Source of the DNA: Eledone cirrhosa
Lineage: Eukaryota
Direction: 5' to 3'
NCBI GenBank assembly: GCA_964016885.1
Contig: OZ024742.1
Location: forward strand, 157,976,001 to 158,040,000
Length of the DNA: 64,000 bases
The first letter of the stretch is position 1. Each line of letters opens with the position of its first letter. This document shows positions 22,132 through 62,545 of the stretch, one piece after another. The notes under the pieces are model-generated. The model saw nothing but the letters and a program-made list of their open reading frames with translations. It had not been told where the DNA came from and searched no databases. The position numbers and the translations under genes were made by a program.

Positions 22132-23060
<929 letters not shown>

Positions 23061-35646: not shown

Positions 35647-39645
<3,999 letters not shown>

Positions 39646-41018: not shown

Positions 41019-43236
41019 TATTCTTGCTTGCTGATGAGGTGTGACAGACGACCAAAAATACGGCCCAGACAAACGGAGTTAACGCCCCAGGCTCTGTCTA
41101 CTTCCGCATCATACAGGTGTAGTAAGTAATGAGCAGTTGCTTTATTTGACATACATGTTCTACGTCAGAAAGAGGGGGTTTATTTACACGGAGGAAGTTC
41201 GGTTCGGGTAAGGTAAAGTTTCAATTTTGATTACATTCTGTGTATTTTAGTAATTTTAGTAATATTTATTTTGATTAATTTCCTTTATTAAATCTTAACT
41301 TGTTTGATAATATATTTAGTGTTTTCACGTTGATTTAGTCCTCTCATCTGAACGAATGAGTACCATCTACAACTGCGAAATTAATCTCGTGACGGATTGT
41401 CATTCCCTCGCGGTGATAATCTTGTTCTTTCAATTGTTTAACACTTCAAGAAACCGAAATAACCTCCGCCTATTGAACTTCTAGGCTTGGGACATTAACA
41501 TGGATGGTAGTTCGTAACATCACTTCAAACAGTTATACACATTCATTATAATATAATATTAATAAATAGGGCAGAAAACCTGAAAGAAACTTTGCAAACG
41601 GGTAGAAGCTGAAAACATGTAATGCATAAATTTGCAAATAATATCAGCATTTTAAATTCCTTAGAACCCACGAAACATTTATTTAGTATTATAACTGATA
41701 GTATACACATCCACGTGTATATTTTCCTTCTCTGTATTTTTCAACAAAGTATAGCTAACTTGAGAGAATGTCAATATATAGAAATGAAATATCATTCATA
41801 TGATAAATACTTTTTTCCTGTCATTCTATCTTTGGCACAAACAGAACAGCTCGCAAATAACATAATAATGACTTACCTAAGCCACCATAATATACTGTCT
41901 ATTATTGCATATCTCTATACGGCAGATCTGATCCAGCATCCGCTTCAACAATGCGTTGTTTGTTCAAAATCTATTTTGAAAAGAACTCCGAAGTAATTAA
42001 ATAATTGATTTCACCTATATAAACAGCAAAACTTACTTTATTCTAGTAATTTCGAATGTGAAATCTTGTAAACGTCATGTAAATATGATTGGAGAGGTAA
42101 ATCGCATTTTGTATAACATTTCTATATAAGCTAGGTCGAAGGTTAACAGGAGAAAAAATAACAATTTAGTCAAAATGAAATCTAATATTCCAGCATATTT
42201 CTGCATCGGCAATTCCTGTTTCTGTGTATTATAGATTGTTGTTTTTCATATATTTCATGTCGGAAACATAAATCAAATAATGTCTTTAAATAATATTTAT
42301 TTCTCATTCTATTATTAGAGACGTGTTTCTGTGAGTAATTTCAAAAAGAAGACGAAGAGTGAAAAAAAAAAGAACGTGTGAATATTTTGTTTTGATGAAC
42401 ATAAGTGTTTACAAGTTGTGTTCAATGTACTCCAACTCTTCAGACAGTTGTCTGGAGAAGCATTATTTCAAATCAATAATGAGAGATAATTTACCAAAAG
42501 ACCTCTTTCTTTCTTTATCGTGTTAAGAATGACATTGCTGAGAGCCAATACATAGAAGTTTTCTGAATGTAAGTAACTATTAAAAGCATACAGCCATTTT
42601 CAAGATATACAGCGATGGTGAGAGATCTTTCGGACATTAAAAATAGCGAAGAAAGAAAGGGAAAAACAAACAGCGTTGTCCTGATGTACGCTAAATAGTG
42701 AATTTCTTCGATTTCTTTAGAATGTAGGTTTACAATTAAGTAGAGGTATCTCAAAGCATTCTGATAAAAGTACTATAATAGATATGTATGAGTGTGTCAT
42801 TTAGTGTGAATGTATTTGTACGTTAGTGCAATTATCTATGTTTACATCATACACACACACACGTGCGTGTGTGTGTATATGTGCATATGTATTAGCTTCG
42901 ACTAATAAATGTTTGACTAAAGAGCAGTCTAGTGGTTATACCTTTAGCAAACGCAGCTAACAAATGATTATACATGCTCGGACTATTTTCTTTAATTCCT
43001 TCATAGTTTAACAGTGAATATGTTCTAAGATATAAGTATTTACACACACACACATACATATATATAGGTATGCACACGTACACACATATATACACATGTA
43101 TATATATACATAACCACACACGTATGGGTTATATCTAACATTATAATAATGTTCGATACGTTTGTAAAGAAAAGGCCATATTTGAAGCTGTGCCGGTGAC
43201 TGATCATCATGTTTGTTCAACACAGGCTTTGAGGAA

Positions 43237-43276
43237 TTATCAACATGTTTCTTGGTCATTACCCATCATTAGGAAT
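43237..43276 (-). ncRNA. Decayed hammerhead motif, positional homolog of the 51-52 kb ribozyme
   Basis: Minus strand: attc-CTAATGA-tggg-taatga-ccaa-GAAA-catg-TT. Core G5 is changed to A. Confidence 0.45.
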
Positions 43277-43461
43277 GTATACCTCTGCCAGTCTGTTCAA
43301 CGGTTGAAAATATATAGTATTTTCTTAAGTACAGATCGGCTGAGTTGCCTCATTTGCATACCAAACGAGTTACGGCTGGCCTTGCCGAATATTAAATATA
43401 AAATTAGAATGTTATTTCTCGCCCTAGCACAGCTGATACATAAATGTAAGTATGCACACGT

Positions 43462-43504
<43 letters not shown>

Positions 43505-44943: not shown

Positions 44944-45059
<116 letters not shown>

Positions 45060-45555
45060 CATACACACACATATATACATATACATAAGTACGTATGGAT
45101 TATCTCAAACATTAATAATAATATTCGATTCGTTTGTAAACAAACGGACTGATTTGAAGTTGTGTCGTGCCGGTGACCGAACGCCACCTCTTTGTTCAAT
45201 TTATGTATCAGCTGTGTTAGGGCGAGCTATAAAATTCTAATTTTATATATATATATATATATATATAAATGTATTCTCTTTTCTCCTAGTTTATTTTACA
45301 CCTAATTCTGTTTAATTAACTGTATATCTGGGCGATTACACTGTCGAAATATTCAATAAATATTCCGTCGCAGCCGACGCGAAGGGCTAGTTTCGGGTAT
45401 TTGTTGGGGATTTCTGCATAGAAGCCTTAATCTTATAGCCTGGTCTATTCGATTTTTTATATAGTTGATTATGCTAATTGGGAGAGGAAATGGTATATAT
45501 TTTATCTGGTGATTCTATAGACATGTTTTATGATATATATATATATATATATATA

Positions 45556-45886: not shown

Positions 45887-46064
45887 GAATTCTATAGCTC
45901 GCCCTAACACAGCTGATACATAAATTGAACAAAGAGGTGGCGTTCGGTCACCGGCACGACACAACTTCAAATCAGTCCGTTTGTTTACAAACGAATCATA
46001 TATTATTATTAATGTTTGAGATAATCCATACGTACTTATGTATATGTATATATGTGTGTGTATG

Positions 46065-46133
<69 letters not shown>

Positions 46134-46306
46134 ACGTGTGCATACTTACATTTATGTATCAGCTGTGCTAGGGCGAGAAATAAAATTCTAATTTAATATT
46201 TAATATTCGGCAAGGCCAGCCGTAACTCGTTTGGTATGCAAATGAGGCAACTCAGCCGATCTGTACTTAAGAAAATACTATATAGCTATCCATCTATCTA
46301 TCTATC

Positions 46307-50294: not shown

Positions 50295-50330
50295 TCTTCT
50301 GATGACGGACTAGTGTCCGAAATGTAAGGA
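50295..50330 (+). ncRNA. Minimal hammerhead ribozyme
   Basis: tctt-CTGATGA-cGGAC-tagt-GTCC-GAAA-tg-TA-agga. The tg may be a deaminated cg in stem III. Confidence 0.65.
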
Positions 50331-50809: not shown

Positions 50810-51030
50810 TACAAAGTGAGTTTTTTTTACAAATTGAAAAATAACCGAGGTGTCCTACACGAGTGAAAGTATAAAGAAAAAAAGATGAAATCGAAAATGC
50901 AACTGGAGTCTTATTTTTTTATTTAAATATATATATTTATATATATTTATATTTGAAGGAATCAAATAATTATATTTATTTAAAAAAAAAAAAAAGACTC
51001 CAGTTGCATTTTCGATTTCATCTTATTTTC

Positions 51031-51036
<6 letters not shown>
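50810..51036. mobile_element. Short fold-back fragment of the 58273-59125 family
   Basis: aaagtgag..cgaggtgtcctacacgagtgaaa..atcgaaaatgcaactggagt is shared with 58275-58369. An inverted copy lies at ~50957-51036. Confidence 0.75.
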
Positions 51037-51114
<78 letters not shown>

Positions 51115-51139
51115 AGTATGTGCGCGTACATACATATAT

Positions 51140-51601
51140 GAGTACAGACGTACTTTAGTATGTATATATATACATACATGCACACACATATATATATATA
51201 TATATGCACGTATGGGTTTACCGAACATATATTATAATGTTCGGTTTGTTTGTAAACAAACAGCCCGAATTACACCGTACAGTGCTCGGCAACCATGTTT
51301 GCCCGTTTGTTCAACACTGACCGATGTACTAGTTTCAAGCTTATTAGCTATCGTCAGCAGCGTATACCTTTCTGTCAGATGATTGAATATTTGAAAGTAT
51401 ATACTTTCCTTATAGATATTGACGGCTGGGCAGACTAATTTGCATATCAAGTGAGTTAGTCGGCCGGGCGCACCGAAAATGATAAATGAAATTTCATTTC
51501 TCACTTTTAGTACGGCTGATACCTAAATATAAGTATGTATACGTACTTATATGTGTACAGACGTACAGTAGTACGTATATATATATACATACATGCACAT
51601 A

Positions 51602-51648
<47 letters not shown>

Positions 51649-52335
51649 GTATGGGTTTACCGAACATTTATTATACTGTTCGGTTTGTTTGTAAACAACC
51701 CGAATTACGCCGTAGAGTGCTAGGCAACCATCGTCGCCCTTTTGTTCAACACTGACACAGGAACCATGTACTAGTTTCAAGTTTCAAGCTTATTAGCTAT
51801 CGTCAGCATCGTATACTTTTCTGTCAGATGATTAAACGTTTGAAAGTATATACTTTCCTTATGCACGTATATACTTTACGTATGTACGTCTGTATACATA
51901 TATGTATGTACGTATACATACTTATATTTAGGTATCAGCCGTACTAAGGGTGAGAAATGAAATTTCGTTTTATTCTTTTCCATCTATCGTTTTCGGTGCG
52001 CCCGGCCGACTAACTCACTCGATATGCAAATTAGGCTGCCCTGCCGTTAATATGCATAAGGAAAGTATATACTTTTAAACGTTCAATCATCTGACAGAAA
52101 GGTATACGATGCTGACGATAGCTAATAAGCTTGAAACTAGTACATCGTTCCTTTGTCAGTTTTGAACAAAAGGGCGACGATGGTTGCCGAACACTGTACG
52201 GCGTAATTCGGGCTGTTTGTTTACAAACAAACCAAACATTATAATAAATGTTCGGTAAACCCATACGTACATATATATATATATATATATGTGTGTGTGC
52301 ATGTTTGTATATATATATATATACATACTACTGTA
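51140..52335. mobile_element. ~440-bp hammerhead-containing repeat: 1.7 tandem units plus one inverted unit (retrozyme-like)
   Basis: cgtatgggtttaccgaacat at 51209 and 51648. Inverted unit at ~51915-52335. Each unit has a hammerhead. Diverged relatives at 43120-43450 and 45090-45200. Confidence 0.8.
52107..52147 (+). ncRNA. Minimal hammerhead ribozyme of the ~440-bp repeat; further copies on the minus strand at 51322-51362 and 51766-51811
   Basis: cgatg-CTGACGA-tAGC-taataa-GCTt-GAAA-ctag-TA-catcg. Confidence 0.8.
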
Positions 52336-52354
52336 CGGTAGTAGAGTGGGAAAT

Positions 52355-52524
52355 AGGAAAAAGGATGACTCCGACGGCAGAGCTCAAGCCGTTTCGACGA
52401 CTATTTCTGAACTACATTTGAATTTTCTGGACTAAATTAGAATTTTTTGGAAAAATTCTAATTTAGTCCAGAAATAACCGTCGAAACGGCTTGAGCTCTG
52501 CCGTCGGGGTCATACTTTTTCCTA
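52355..52524. repeat. Nested inverted repeats (outer ~55 bp, inner ~22 bp) adjoining (TA)n
   Basis: taggaaaaag..ccgacggcagagctcaagccgtttcgacg / cgtcgaaacggcttgagctctgccgtcgg..ctttttccta, with inner ttctggactaaattagaatttt / aaaattctaatttagtccagaa. Confidence 0.85.
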
Positions 52525-54545
52525 TATATATATATATATATCATATTTTCATTAGGTTAGAGGTACTAGTTGTTATTAAAGTTTCAGTGGGAAACCATTT
52601 CCAAATTACTTATTCTATTAAAAGTTTAAGAAATGTATGAATGTTTAACATACTTCTCGACGATCCTCAGGTATAATACCTTTGTATGCATACTGATATA
52701 CATGAATCTCCTATATTCGACACACACAAGTAACTTACATTTTATTATCTATTATTATGGTACTATATATTCTCTCATACGGTTAATTAAGAATCTATAT
52801 TTGAAAATTAGTGCATTTGTGAATTTCAACTGTAATGTATACTAAATTACACCTGCTAAAGAAAGTTTCTTTTTTATTAAGATCTTAAATATAGATTCAC
52901 ATAAGACATATCATAGACATGCCATATGATATGTTGGTGTTTAAAATGCCACTTTTGGTCTCATAATTTCACTAATATCTGCCTTAAAAACTTTATTCAA
53001 AATTCTGAACAGTCATCAATAGTTTCTTAAAGGAGCACTGTAACAATTTCAACAGAATATTCTGCAGTAACATTTTTTGCAGTATGAATCAACGCCGATG
53101 TTAAAGGACATGCCTAACCTTCAACTATTCATTATACCTCAAAGCCTTAAATTAATATTCGATGGGATAATATATCAACAATAATGCCCAGTAGAATGAA
53201 ACCTTGAAAGACAGAAAGGACATTAATAAGATAAAAAATATAGATAGAAAATTTCTAATGAATGTCAATGAATGGAAAAGGCGAAGTCAAGTTAGTGAAC
53301 AGAAACAACACAATGCTAGTGGTGATACTTTCAGAGCCTTTTATTCTGCAAATTTGGCATCTTAGCTTTCAGAGAAGCTAATTCATATCTCCCGTCACAG
53401 TGAAAACCTCACGCCACATAAACAATTTGAATTTCTTGAAGATCTTGAAAAGCTGTCGTGATGCCTGCTCTCGAATACAAAAACAAAAAAAAAATCATCC
53501 ACAAGATTAACTAAAGACAGACAAGAAATTGAAAACATAATATAAAAACATTATGTAGTCAGAACAATGGTTCCTGTAGGCACGCAAAAATAGAAATTAA
53601 AAGTAATTAGAAAACAGGTAACTAAAACAAAATCCTTCCATTATCAATAACATTTAAAATTAATAACATTTAAATTATATTTCTTATGATTAATTTTGCT
53701 TTCATTTTTTCTTTGTGGTGGTAGTCGTTGTCGTCGTCATGTTGTTAAATAATAGTAATATTATTGATAAATATCAGAAGACGGATGGTCAGATTGTTTT
53801 AAAGTTTATTAACTCCGTTTACTTTATTTTCGAATACTTTTCACTATTTTGTCTTTTACTTTAAATATAATAGAAAACGAGGAAGAAAGGATTTTGTTCC
53901 AGGCCCTAGTGACAAAATGTTTTAAATGTTTTGAAATTTCATTAAAAAATAATAAAATATGAAAAGATCATCAAAATTATTGATTTTATTTAAAAGAGCT
54001 GTTTGTTCGAAAGCTTGAAGCAAAAATCTCCTAAAGTTATGTTGAAAAATCTATGGGGTTCTAAACAACGTCTTCAAACGCTGATCTTTTAAATTCAAAA
54101 GCTCACAGAGAATGTCACACAAATCATTACAAGAAAAACAACAGCAACAACGTTGTCGTAGAAGAGAAACGAAAGTCGATGTTGCCAATCAAATAATAGT
54201 TATAAAGTGTGTATCAAAATAATTTACTTCCTTCCTATATAAAAATACAATACAAGTAAAATATGTACTGGCTTTTCTGCTTCAACTACCCACCTGATGA
54301 CAAATATGTTTTTATCTTTGCTGGTGTCTTTGCTGGTGTCTTCACTGCCCATTGTTGTTGTTGTTGTCAGGTCAGCTTTTATCGAACAATTATATGATCA
54401 AATATCTTCTAGCTCTAATGATATTTCTGTATTAGTAATTGTGTATTTCTCTTTCAAACAAAATTAACTTTACTAAAATGTTATTTCAAGCAGAACGACC
54501 ATTTTCAGAGTGCCTCTGTCATTGTCAGGGATAAAAGAATGTAAT

Positions 54546-59125: not shown

Positions 59126-60580
59126 ATATATATATACGCATATGTATGTAATAGGTAAGCAGAAAAAACAGCACAAACGGTACAATATATGGAAGGAATA
59201 TATTAGTTTATCGCTTGAAATATATATATATATATATATTTCAGGGATATCATATTAACAATATGTTATGCCTTCTTCAGACAAAATACAATATAGACAG
59301 TCTTATAAATAAATAGATTCGACATACCTTTCAACATCGACTTGCATTTGAAAAGTTGATTTGGCAGTAAAAATATTATGGGCAGTTGTAAAAAGAAAGA
59401 AAGAAAGAAAGAAAGAAAAACGAAGAAAAAGAAGAAATGCATGCAACTAAATAGAGAGAGATAGAAAGATAGATAAAGAGAAGAACTTCATGTAAAGAAA
59501 CAGAGAGAGATATATAGAGAGAGGTAATAGATAGAGATAGATAGATATAGATAGAAAAAAATAGGTAGTTGAGCATCAGTTGAATGACGTATCAATGATA
59601 CATTTATTTATTTATTTATTTAGCTCTAGTATTAATGTAAAGAGAGATATATGTGGTTAGGAGAGAAAACAGCCGTTATATAGAGAGAAAAAAGAAAAAT
59701 GAAAAATAACCAGACATAAGCGAGGGAGAATTTAAAAACACTATGTTTCATCAATGTAGAAATATTAGTTCGTATAAAAACAGGCATTATAATGTAAATA
59801 TCAGTATTCATGAATGAGACACGTATCTATAATGTGTGAAAAGTAATGATCATATGTCTAGTTTTAAAAATTCATATGTTTATATCATAACTATAAACAT
59901 CGATGTGAATTTACGTGATCAGCTCTGCAAACTCCTATTTCACACGAAAACATTCTCATTGTGCTATAAAAATTCAAGTATACATTTATGTGCATATATA
60001 CACATATATATAGAGTCTATATTAATTTTAACAATACTATTCTTGTCTTTACTCTACATGATTATCGATCAAGCAGAAATAGAGAACAGATTTCAATATA
60101 TTAATACAATTAATAAAAATATCAGAAACAAAAATAAATAAACAGAAAACTAAAAAATATTAAATATTAAAAATAAAAAATATTAAAAATATTAAAGAAT
60201 ATTAAAAAATATTAAAAAATAATAAAAATAAAACATAGTATGCCACGCAAATCGACCACAAAGATCAACCCTTCAAAGTTAATTGACAATATATTGCCAA
60301 GTTCATTATAAGCATCAGAGTCAAAAACAGATAAAACCAAAAATTATTTACCAAATCCTGTCTAGCAGAAATCATTCCAAAAGTTTAGGATACCCATTTG
60401 GTCTACATATGTTCTTATATTTAATATAGAAGTGTATCTAGTGTAAAATTTATTCGATATATTTGGAGCATCAACTTTTAGGGTAGTTTAATTATTCATG
60501 AAGAATGTTTAAAATAAAAAGAAGAAATCGAAAGATTTATCGGCTAGTTTCATAAATAATTACAAATCAAACTAAATATA

Positions 60581-61237
60581 CTACATTTTAAATTTAAATT
60601 TATATTTAAAAGTTGAGTTTAATCTATGTCTGCAGCAACTGAATAAATTTGTCCGTAGATTAAGGGAATTTTTAGATTTTAGTATAAAGAATATCTCCTC
60701 CGCGCAGAGGTCACATGTCTCAGAGGATGAATTAAAAGGAATCCCTCTTGAACCTATATTCCAAGCCGTCGAATATCTAACGTTATCATGCCTAAGTTGC
60801 CAGAGTACGCCTGATAGTGCTGTTGAAGATTTTTTGCTTGGATCTGTGAAAGAATTCTTGTGGTTATTATAGCGAAGTTTAAATTCCGTCGATGTGGAAC
60901 CAACGTAGTTAAAAGAATTAAAGTCCGTTTTAACATTACAGTTGTATATTATATTTTTAACTAAGCAGTTGTTATTTAACGGACATTTAGATCTATCTCT
61001 ACAGTTACATTTGTTAACTTGGATATTTATGCTATTATCGCTAGCTTTTAAGTTCCTATTATTTATTCTATTAATATTTTGTGCTAAATTTTTCGTGGAT
61101 GAGTAGGTTAATTTTATAGTATGTCTATTGAAAATTGAGTGATACATATGTGTTCTAGGGAAGCGATTATCAAGAGCTTTAAAAAATAGTTTAGCGATGT
61201 GGGTTTTAATGTTTAGTGAGAAGGGGGGGGGGGGGGG
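60581..61237 (-). CDS. PLE linker + GIY-YIG endonuclease (continues the RT ORF after a frameshift in a G15 run)
   Basis: PPFSLNIKT..IFNRHTIKLTYS, CNCRDRSKCPL (CxCx5C), IIY..YVGSTST.FKLRYNNH (GIY-YIG with catalytic R), CDLCAEE, NLRTNLFSCCRH. Confidence 0.9.
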   Translation of the reverse strand, partial: PPPPPFSLNIKTHIAKLFFKALDNRFPRTHMYHSIFNRHTIKLTYSSTKNLAQNINRINNRNLKASDNSINIQVNKCNCRDRSKCPLNNNCLVKNIIYNCNVKTDFNSFNYVGSTSTEFKLRYNNHKNSFTDPSKKSSTALSGVLWQLRHDNVRYSTAWNIGSRGIPFNSSSETCDLCAEEIFFILKSKNSLNLRTNLFSCCRHRLNSTFKYKFKFKM

Positions 61238-62079
61238 CGGGCAAACCATATTATATTCCTAGTTCTATTTCTTTTTTGGCTTTTGGAATTATTGTAATGC
61301 TTTCTATTATAGTTGTTAAGGCTGTGGCCGTAATTAAAATAGTTGTTATTTTGTTTAGTTTGTCTATTATTATCTATGTACATAATTGTATCACTATATC
61401 CTGCTCTAGCTAACGCTTCATTGTAATACTGGGCTTTTTCGTCGAAAATCTTTTTATTAGACGAGATTCTAGAGATACGTTTTTGAACAGAGTTTACTAT
61501 AGTATTTTTAACAGATCTGGGGTGGTTAGAGTTAAAGCTGACATAGTTTAAGTTTTCATTCAACTTGTGAAATGGATAGTGAAGACATGTGTTGAGATTT
61601 AATGTTATATCTAGGAAATTGACTATTCTATGGTTATTCTCAATTTCTATTTTTAGATTAAAGTAATTAAAAAATTGTGTAATTTGTTTTCTTTTTCTAT
61701 TTCGTTCAGAGTTATTATTATCAATAAGTAAAAGCATGTCATCTCTATATAAACCTCCGGTAGTACCAGGTATTTTCCTATGCAGCGAATTGATTAAAAA
61801 TAAGCCCACAAGGTCAGTTACCTGAGCTGAGTCGGATGATCCCATAGTAATGTCAAAATTGTTATCTCTATCTGCTCTGGTCAATAGTTGGTCATTAAAT
61901 TCTATCAATGTTTTCCTAGCCGATAATATAATGTGCATTTCATTGCTAGTTAGGTCTGTATGTTTGAATGCGTAATTTAGTACCTTATTTAGTAGATTAG
62001 GGGTAATAGAAGAATAATAGTTAGCAATATCAAGTTGAATAAACTTATTATTATTGTTATATTTAATTTGCTTAAACCA
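61238..62079 (-). CDS. PLE reverse transcriptase (partial, 5'-truncated at the inversion junction)
   Basis: The frame stays open upstream of the listed ATG: WFKQIKY..FIQLDIANYYSSI (motif A), FDITMGSSDSAQVTDLVG (motif B), GLYRDDML (catalytic YxDD), FLDITLNL, YVSFNSNHP, RNIIWF. Confidence 0.92.
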
Positions 62080-62479
62080 CTCTCTCTATATAACGGCTGT
62101 TTTCTCTCCTAACCACATATATCTCTCTTTACATTAATACTAGAGCTAAATAAATAAATAAATAAATAAATGTATCATTGATACGTCATTCAACTGATGC
62201 TCAACTACCTACTTTCTCTATCTATATCTATCTATCTCTATCTATTACCTCTCTCTATATATCTATCTCTGTTTCTTTACATGAAGTTATTCTCTTTATC
62301 TATCTTTCTATCTCTCTCTATTTAGTTGCATGCATTTCTTCTTTTTCTTCGTTTTTCTTTCTTTCTTTCTTTCTTTTTACAACTGTCCATAATATTTTTA
62401 CTGCCAAATCAACTTTTCAAATGCAAGTCGATGTTGAAAGGTATGTCGAATCTATTTATTTATAAGACTGTCTGTATTG

Positions 62480-62545
62480 TATTTTGTCTGAAGAAGGCAT
62501 AACATATTGTTAATATGATATCCCTGAAATATATATAATGAAATA
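62480..62545 (+). ncRNA. Minimal type I hammerhead ribozyme in the PLE pseudo-LTR
   Basis: attttgt-CTGAAGA-agg...cct-GAAA-tatata-TA-atgaaat. Stem I pairs with G-U wobbles and stem III is palindromic. The mirror copy at 59232-59287 ends in (TA)n at the predicted cleavage site. Confidence 0.75.

What the first reader, a model, noticed from the sequence alone, without database searches (positions are those of the whole stretch)
51140..52335. ~440-nt tandem hammerhead repeat: retrozyme-like circular RNA candidate
Seen: two head-to-tail units (ribozymes at 51322 and 51766, minus strand) followed by an inverted full unit with a perfect motif (52107-52147). No ORF. Units include strong hairpins (ccgaacat..atgttcgg, gtttgtt..aacaaac), a TA microsatellite and an ATTTGCAT octamer. 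Known: metazoan non-LTR retrozymes are tandem few-hundred-nt repeats whose hammerheads release monomers that circularise. Inference: this is such a family. The second copy has a 7-nt duplication (gtttcaa) in its ribozyme.
Basis: partly seen in the sequence, partly recalled or inferred. Interest (0 to 1): 0.8.

Follow-up and report, generated by a model that had tools for sequence, protein, structure and literature searches.

The report
Hammerhead retrozyme spread by Penelope elements
This is one worn copy of a non-coding repeat of about 440 bases that carries a predicted self-cutting RNA motif and occurs more than ten thousand times in this animal genome; it is likely pasted into TA microsatellites by Penelope-like retrotransposons, perhaps from a circular RNA, and is a new member of a known class.

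Summary
Observation largely confirmed. The three type I hammerhead motifs are real: across sister families the catalytic boxes are kept, while four helix pairs show compensatory changes. The family is very large: 1,916 exact 39-nt copies, 12,667 exact 22-nt copies, and arrays of up to 48 units. It fits the animal non-LTR retrozymes.

The 'inverted unit' is the 5' inversion typical of Penelope-like element (PLE) insertions. Of 87 copies, 77 end at one of two fixed internal sites, mostly in (TA)n, and 41 carry an inverted partner. A young autonomous Neptune-type PLE in the same genome shows the same signature, but its terminal repeat is not homologous.

Copies read through the cleavage site, and duplicated segments share one haplotype. 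So the template was a circle (about 60%) or an uncleaved tandem RNA, not a cleaved linear monomer. No RNA data were available: expression, cleavage and circles are untested. This locus is probably not a circle source, since both tandem ribozymes are damaged. The scan earlier noted similar anatomy, without a ribozyme, in other genomes.

The parts
51035..51114 (.). (TA)n microsatellite; insertion target at the 3' end of the minus-strand run
   Evidence: TRF; family copies end in such runs
51111..51865 (-). Main run, about 1.7 units: monomer position 344 to 436, one full monomer, then 1 to 214 (fixed 3' end A)
51322..51363 (-). Hammerhead 1: core intact, helix I with two mismatches, 7-nt deletion just behind; predicted cleavage after 51327
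51327..51768 (-). Cleavage-site-to-cleavage-site monomer, 442 nt (the hypothetical circle)
51438..51445 (-). Octamer ATGCAAAT; kept in 93 of 106 family segments and 17 of 24 sister-family loci; role unknown
51764..51812 (-). Hammerhead 2: 7-nt duplication (51774-51787) between helix II and III plus a helix I mismatch; MFE no longer gives the hammerhead fold; likely impaired
51861..51865 (.). Head-to-head (5'-to-5') inversion junction with a few shared bases
51861..52336 (+). Inverted partner, about 1.06 units (monomer 151 to 436, then 1 to 178); natural 3' end likely lost by a later deletion
   Evidence: loss is inferred
52106..52148 (+). Hammerhead 3, intact type I: helix I 6 bp, CUGACGA, U-U mismatch, helix II 4 bp with a 4-nt loop, GAAA, 2-bp helix III with palindromic ACUAGU; predicted cleavage after GUA at 52142
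52024..52031 (+). Octamer ATGCAAAT of the inverted partner

Best explanation
A decayed single insertion of a non-coding, hammerhead-bearing repeat family (an animal non-LTR retrozyme, monomer about 420-530 nt across subfamilies) that is likely copied into (TA)n microsatellites in trans by a Penelope-like element's reverse transcriptase and endonuclease. Inferred cycle: tandem source copies are transcribed; the hammerheads, probably acting as dimers through the palindromic helix III, would cut out monomers; these would be ligated into circles. The PLE protein would then nick (TA)n and start reverse transcription at one of two internal sites (monomer about 215 or 281), run through the cleavage junction for 0.5 to several units, and often prime on both strands, giving a head-to-head pair. 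Some arrays later grow by DNA-level duplication. Shown: copy number, anatomy, conserved fold, read-through of the cleavage site. Inferred: PLE mobilisation (about 0.9), cleavage (about 0.8), circular template (about 0.6).
For: Fold under selection: between this family and an older sister family 4 helix pairs change on both sides, 96% of cells pair against 26-49% in slid controls, and the helix III palindrome changes from ACTAGT to ACATGT. PLE anatomy: 77 of 87 copies end at two fixed sites; 69 of those 77 are followed by TA/TC runs against 39 of 348 flank windows; 41 of 87 have an inverted 5' partner; 34 of 43 inverted parts end at the same two sites. A young Neptune-type PLE in this genome shows two 3' ends about 37 nt apart into (TA)n (17 + 10 of 28 loci), with inverted and tandem copies. 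The literature describes these as PLE marks (PMC8557442, PMC11167929). The template spans the cleavage site: 0 of 30 hits chosen without the ribozyme have a 5' end within 20 nt of it, and 25 of 30 read through. One haplotype per insertion: diagnostic sites disagree at 21 of 287 comparisons within direct runs against 39.9% between loci; young arrays differ by 0.44% within and 3.39% between loci.
Against: No expression, cleavage or circle data exist. No autonomous PLE with a homologous terminal repeat turned up among 90 PLE-protein loci from three searches, so the mobilising partner is not identified. Homogeneous arrays can also arise at DNA level, and do so here: the 48-mer has identical units at lags 9, 15 and 24, and L218 shows a duplicated dimer. 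The 48-mer has a C3-to-A core change in 40 of 48 units and in its inverted partner, which a circle made by its own ribozyme would not predict. Covariation reflects only 2-3 independent lineages (427 of 500 shuffles reach the count of covarying pairs). The strong circular fold (z about -7) is equally strong on the antisense strand and is inflated by TA palindromes. In PMC11167929 the PLE hammerhead was not needed for insertion in vitro; in the 2026 preprint 8 of 9 Xenopus dimers did not cleave.
Confidence: 0.8

Rival explanations
1. Same family and same PLE-driven insertion, but the template is a linear, uncleaved tandem transcript (or one RNA re-primed by the RT). Circles, if made at all, are a by-product.
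For: Read-through of the cleavage site and haplotype concordance fit homogeneous source arrays just as well. The helix II U-U mismatch and 2-bp helix III predict weak cleavage (the axolotl motif with this mismatch cleaved 22% in an hour as a monomer, PMC7229834). Unprocessed RNA was the main substrate for the anole PLE in vitro (PMC11167929). The ribozyme-mutant 48-mer exists.
Against: The hammerhead fold is kept by compensatory changes across subfamilies, yet insertions neither start nor end at the cut, which a ligated circle explains simply. 75 of 87 copies are under 1.6 units, so multimers must be regenerated from single units repeatedly; array-private alleles are shared by all units and by the inverted partner.
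Confidence: 0.3
2. The copies are 5'-truncated pseudo-LTRs of an autonomous PLE, not a self-contained non-autonomous element.
For: End structure, target and inversions are those of PLEs. PLE remnants lie near many copies.
Against: Long copies continue upstream into the previous monomer, not into an ORF (54 of 87 exceed one unit). PLE ORFs near copies had their own 3' ends or opposite orientation where I looked. The motif has canonical 6-bp and 4-bp helices, not the minimal PLE form.
Confidence: 0.07
3. A satellite or minisatellite spread by DNA-level recombination, with a fossil or chance ribozyme.
For: The 48-unit array shows recent higher-order duplication and mostly mutated cores.
Against: Dispersed copies with fixed 3' ends, ragged 5' ends and inversions point to reverse transcription. 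Covariation argues against chance.
Confidence: 0.03

Closest known systems
Animal non-LTR retrozymes (Cervera and de la Pena 2020, PMC7229834: coral, mussel, axolotl)
   Same: Canonical type I hammerhead in each unit of a non-coding tandem repeat, low GC, dimers to large multimers, self-paired monomer. The U-U mismatch at the base of helix II matches axolotl HHR_Amex2.
   Different: Monomer of 420-530 nt is at or above the reported 150-450 range and holds a TA microsatellite. Most copies are 0.5-1.6-unit dispersed insertions with PLE-type ends. Expression and circles were shown there and are untested here.
Non-LTR retrozymes as non-autonomous PLE derivatives (Li, Clavereau, Pollet 2026, bioRxiv 10.64898/2026.07.22.740005)
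   Same: Co-occurs with active PLEs; monomers, dimers and multimers; proposed PLE-driven mobility.
   Different: Their evidence is co-occurrence and pLTR homology in Xenopus. Here no pLTR homology was found; the link rests on insertion anatomy.
Endonuclease-bearing Penelope-like elements, Neptune and Naiad type (PMC8557442; PMC4209133; PMC11167929)
   Same: 5' truncation, partial tandems, inverted 5' copy, two alternative 3' ends, (TA)n targets, no clear target-site duplication, hammerhead upstream of the 3' ends.
   Different: No ORF. The two ends are about 60-65 nt apart rather than 30-40. The ribozyme is canonical rather than minimal.
Newt satellite 2 (snRNA-type promoter; seen only as cited in PMC2220036, the primary paper was not held)
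   Same: Hammerhead tandem repeat; an octamer would suit an snRNA-type promoter (recalled).
   Different: The upstream profile of this genome's U1/U2 genes does not match the monomer, and those genes have no octamer within 300 nt.

Membership tests
Animal non-LTR retrozyme | Type I hammerhead with intact core and helices I-III in the repeat unit | tested here: met
   Rfam models do not score it
Animal non-LTR retrozyme | [quoted passage not shown] | tested here: met
   12 of 87 loci have 1.6 units or more; 3- to 6-unit arrays with intact motifs; 48-mer
Animal non-LTR retrozyme | Non-coding, GC below 50% | tested here: met
   no ORF of 110 aa or more; GC 0.37-0.38
Animal non-LTR retrozyme | Highly self-paired monomer | tested here: inconclusive
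   65-69% paired, z about -7 against 15 shuffles, but the same on the antisense strand and helped by TA palindromes
Animal non-LTR retrozyme | Self-cleavage of the transcript | not testable with these tools
   needs in vitro transcription
Animal non-LTR retrozyme | Expressed as linear and circular monomer RNA | not testable with these tools
   no RNA holder listed
Animal non-LTR retrozyme | Target-site duplications longer than 4 bp, when present | tested here: inconclusive
   junctions read by eye are mostly TA runs, in which a duplication cannot be told
PLE-mobilised non-autonomous element | Fixed alternative 3' ends, 5' truncation, inverted 5' copy, microsatellite target | tested here: met
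PLE-mobilised non-autonomous element | Autonomous PLE present with the same insertion signature | tested here: met
   777-aa RT plus GIY-YIG-type ORF, 102 scored copies without stops, two ends into (TA)n
PLE-mobilised non-autonomous element | Sequence homology to the pLTR of an autonomous PLE | tested here: not met
   none on the 3' side of 90 loci from three protein searches; these sample only the best hits of tens of thousands of candidates
Autonomous PLE | RT and GIY-YIG ORF between pLTRs | tested here: not met
snRNA-promoter-driven satellite (newt satellite 2 type) | Internal match to the host's snRNA proximal promoter | tested here: not met
   profile from 8 U1/U2 upstream regions scores -8.7 on the monomer against -5.1 +/- 4.0 for shuffles

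The most novel reading that the evidence does not exclude
These insertions are a genome-wide record of rolling-circle, target-primed reverse transcription: a PLE enzyme, recruited without any pLTR homology, starts at two internal sites on a ribozyme-made circular RNA and runs round it, on both strands of a cut (TA)n target. With young intact arrays and a near-identical autonomous Neptune-type PLE in one genome, the proposed circRNA-to-genome step of retrozymes could be reconstituted directly.
Probability: 0.45. Interest if true: 0.65.

Novelty: new member of a known kind. Interest (0 to 1): 0.42.

Why it matters
The class is known, and this copy is decayed. The family matters for two reasons. 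It puts over ten thousand hammerhead motifs, in several subfamilies of different age, into a genome where Rfam sees none. And its insertion anatomy ties retrozymes to PLE target-primed reverse transcription more directly than co-occurrence does, and excludes the cleaved linear monomer as template. How animal retrozymes integrate, and whether the circle is the template, is stated as open in the 2026 preprint; here both a young retrozyme subfamily and a candidate enzyme are at hand.

Tried and rejected
Rfam: no hit at gathering score in the window; at E<=10 only TA-driven microRNA-type noise and no hammerhead model among 90 rows.

Expression: no RNA holder listed. Three runs of unknown kind, one sample, contigs only, hold the family at high depth and list no pile-up of ends; this says nothing about RNA.

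Autonomous parent: two ribozymes 4.6 kb apart (L061) enclose unrelated sequence, not a matching PLE. The Neptune-type ORF beside L026 has its own 3' end. Two further protein searches gave no homologous terminal repeat.

Comparing genome-wide counts up- and downstream of the cleavage site was rejected as a test, because subfamilies share different segments; direct inspection was used instead. A genome-wide count of the motif across both families was not obtained.

snRNA-type promoter: not supported. A dimeric circle as the source of the alternating array L218 was considered and dropped: its first unit differs from both alternating types, which fits DNA duplication of a dimer. The 'intact 0' count printed is a script slip and is not used; 5 of 48 units keep CUGANGA. 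Earlier scan notes by sequence: nothing.

Full report
Observation. The region holds three hammerhead cores of one family. Against a natural monomer (L069, 436 nt, numbered from the predicted cut) the minus strand 51865-51111 reads positions 344-436, a full monomer and 1-214, ending in (TA)n; the plus strand 51861-52336 reads 151-436 and 1-178. The runs meet head to head. Their overlapping parts share 3-5 derived variants per comparison where about 1 is expected between loci, so I read them as one insertion. Only the plus-strand motif is intact; it folds with helix I and II as drawn (z -2.5). It has no second ribozyme on its strand, and both minus-strand motifs are damaged, so this locus is unlikely to release a monomer.

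The ribozyme. Rfam does not score it. A diverged copy in the window (43058-43468) led to an older sister family (1,815 candidates, 40 scored). In an ungapped alignment of 22 family and 22 sister motifs (I left out some family loci, the window's own sister copy and L167), the catalytic boxes are invariant or nearly so, 96.2% of cells pair, four pairs change on both sides, and slid controls give 26-49%. The helix III palindrome changes while staying palindromic, the base of helix II is a mismatch in the main subfamilies seen (U-U, A-A, C-A), and a third-position helix I pair appears as A-U, G-U and U-G. These changes come from only two or three lineages, so they are strong in kind and few in number. 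Helix sizes match the canonical metazoan type I form described in PMC4209133.

The family. The window is G000:C3:157976001-158040000 of a 3.0-Gb assembly. Exact matches number 1,916 for a 39-mer, and 3,387, 18,844 and 12,667 for three shorter patterns; reversed controls were 0 each time. I studied 87 loci covering the first 95 of the 100 places listed, all on C1 and all chosen for an exact ribozyme, so they lean to well-preserved copies. Their 3' ends fall at monomer 205-230 (41), 270-285 (36), elsewhere (9) or the locus edge (1). A TA or TC run follows 69 of the 77 fixed ends against 39 of 348 flank windows; for the second end, which is not next to the unit's own microsatellite, it is 32 of 36. 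Run length is under 1 unit in 33, 1-1.6 in 42 and more in 12; 41 have an inverted partner at the 5' end, and 34 of 43 inverted parts end at the same two sites. Median divergence from the majority letter is 3.5%. One locus extends to 48 tandem units over about 21 kb, with recent higher-order duplications and a mutated core in most units. A younger subfamily has arrays of 2-6 units with intact motifs.

The likely mobiliser. These marks are those described for PLEs: 5' truncation, partial tandems, an inverted 5' copy, an optional tail and (TA)n targets (PMC8557442), with the tail arising from two internal RT start sites and both strands being cut and extended (PMC11167929). The genome holds a very young PLE with a 777-aa ORF (RVT_1 E 4e-7; a CX4CxxC motif before a GIY-YIG-like end, read by eye, hence Neptune-type, not tested by a tree). 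All 102 scored copies lack stops and 57, the query included, share the top score. Of 28 loci whose 3' end was in view, 17 and 10 stop at two sites about 37 nt apart, into TA or TC runs, and one continues in tandem. Its terminal repeat carries its own hammerhead-like motif and has no BLAST similarity to the monomer; nor do 60 further PLE loci on their 3' side. So PLE mobilisation is inferred from anatomy, and the partner is not identified.

The template. [quoted passage not shown] They do not: 3' ends lie 215 or 281 nt past it, and among 30 hits chosen by a pattern away from the ribozyme (some in the same insertion) none has a 5' end within 20 nt of it, while 25 read through. Segments duplicated within an insertion carry one haplotype: 21 of 287 diagnostic comparisons disagree in direct runs and 50 of 363 in inverted pairs, against 38,819 of 97,195 between loci (the 48-mer left out, pairs not independent). 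In 12 hand-picked young loci, 34 ribozyme-centred windows differ by 0.44% within and 3.39% between loci. A circle read more than once explains this and explains why cleavage is conserved. An uncleaved homogeneous multimer, re-priming, or DNA-level duplication, which does occur here, can explain it too. I put the circle at about 0.6.

Promoter. The octamer is conserved (93 of 106 segments, 17 of 24 sister loci), but the host U1/U2 upstream profile does not match the monomer. Its role stays unexplained.

Literature and novelty. Read: parts 1-3 of 5 of bioRxiv 10.64898/2026.07.22.740005 (supplements closed); parts 2-3 of 6 and passages of PMC7229834 (its supplement could not be read, and may list related repeats); parts 1-2 of 4 of PMC4209133 and of PMC11167929; passages of PMC8557442, PMC13282606 and PMC2220036. 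Five searches listed no description of this family, and the 2026 Octopus vulgaris repeat annotation has no 'hammerhead' or 'ribozyme' in its main text. Repeat libraries could not be searched, so the repeat may already be catalogued under another label. Two earlier scan notes describe the same insertion pattern for tRNA-bearing repeats in other genomes; I did not check them.

Verdict. A real and well-supported new family of a known class, with unusually clear genomic traces of how it moves. RNA-level claims are untested.

Noticed in passing
window 60581-62085 (-): 5'-truncated, frameshifted PLE with RT and C-terminal endonuclease motifs, Hydra-type by recalled motifs; no Pfam hit; 150 scored genomic copies at 96-100% identity, 60,874 candidates.
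   Followed up: partly
window 50299-50326 (+): A separate minimal hammerhead-like motif with a strong helix II, not part of this family.
   Followed up: no
window 50810-51036 and 52337-52525: Inverted repeats flanking the finding. They end in TA runs and recur in other loci with a tail extension, so they look like head-to-head ends of other PLE-type families rather than MITEs: a nest of insertions in one microsatellite.
   Followed up: partly
window 43058-43468, 44944-45145, 45981-46258: Copies of the older sister family, about 67-79% identical to the unit.
   Followed up: yes
window 43602 (-), 44755 (+), 58435 (-), 59262-59310 and about 62480-62530: Further hammerhead-like cores of other repeat families, some with long helix II or a U3-A8 core.
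   Followed up: no
L157:1046-4573 (G000:C3): Very young Neptune-type PLE with a 352-aa upstream frame and a 777-aa RT-endonuclease frame; its terminal repeat has a hammerhead-like motif with a U3-A8 core and palindromic helix III.
   Followed up: partly
L154, L160, L161 (G000:C1, about 70,055,900-70,076,700): 48-unit array turning into a satellite: about 15 distinct units 3-5% apart, recent 9-, 15- and 24-unit duplications, core C3 changed to A in 40 units.
   Followed up: yes
L237-L260: U1 and U2 genes share upstream motifs near -88, -56 and -255 and have no octamer within 300 nt.
   Followed up: no
window 22132-22838 (+): Broken mariner-type transposase frames, judged by recalled motifs.
   Followed up: no
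window 36580-37809: GC-rich tandem repeat with a 172-173-nt period.
   Followed up: no
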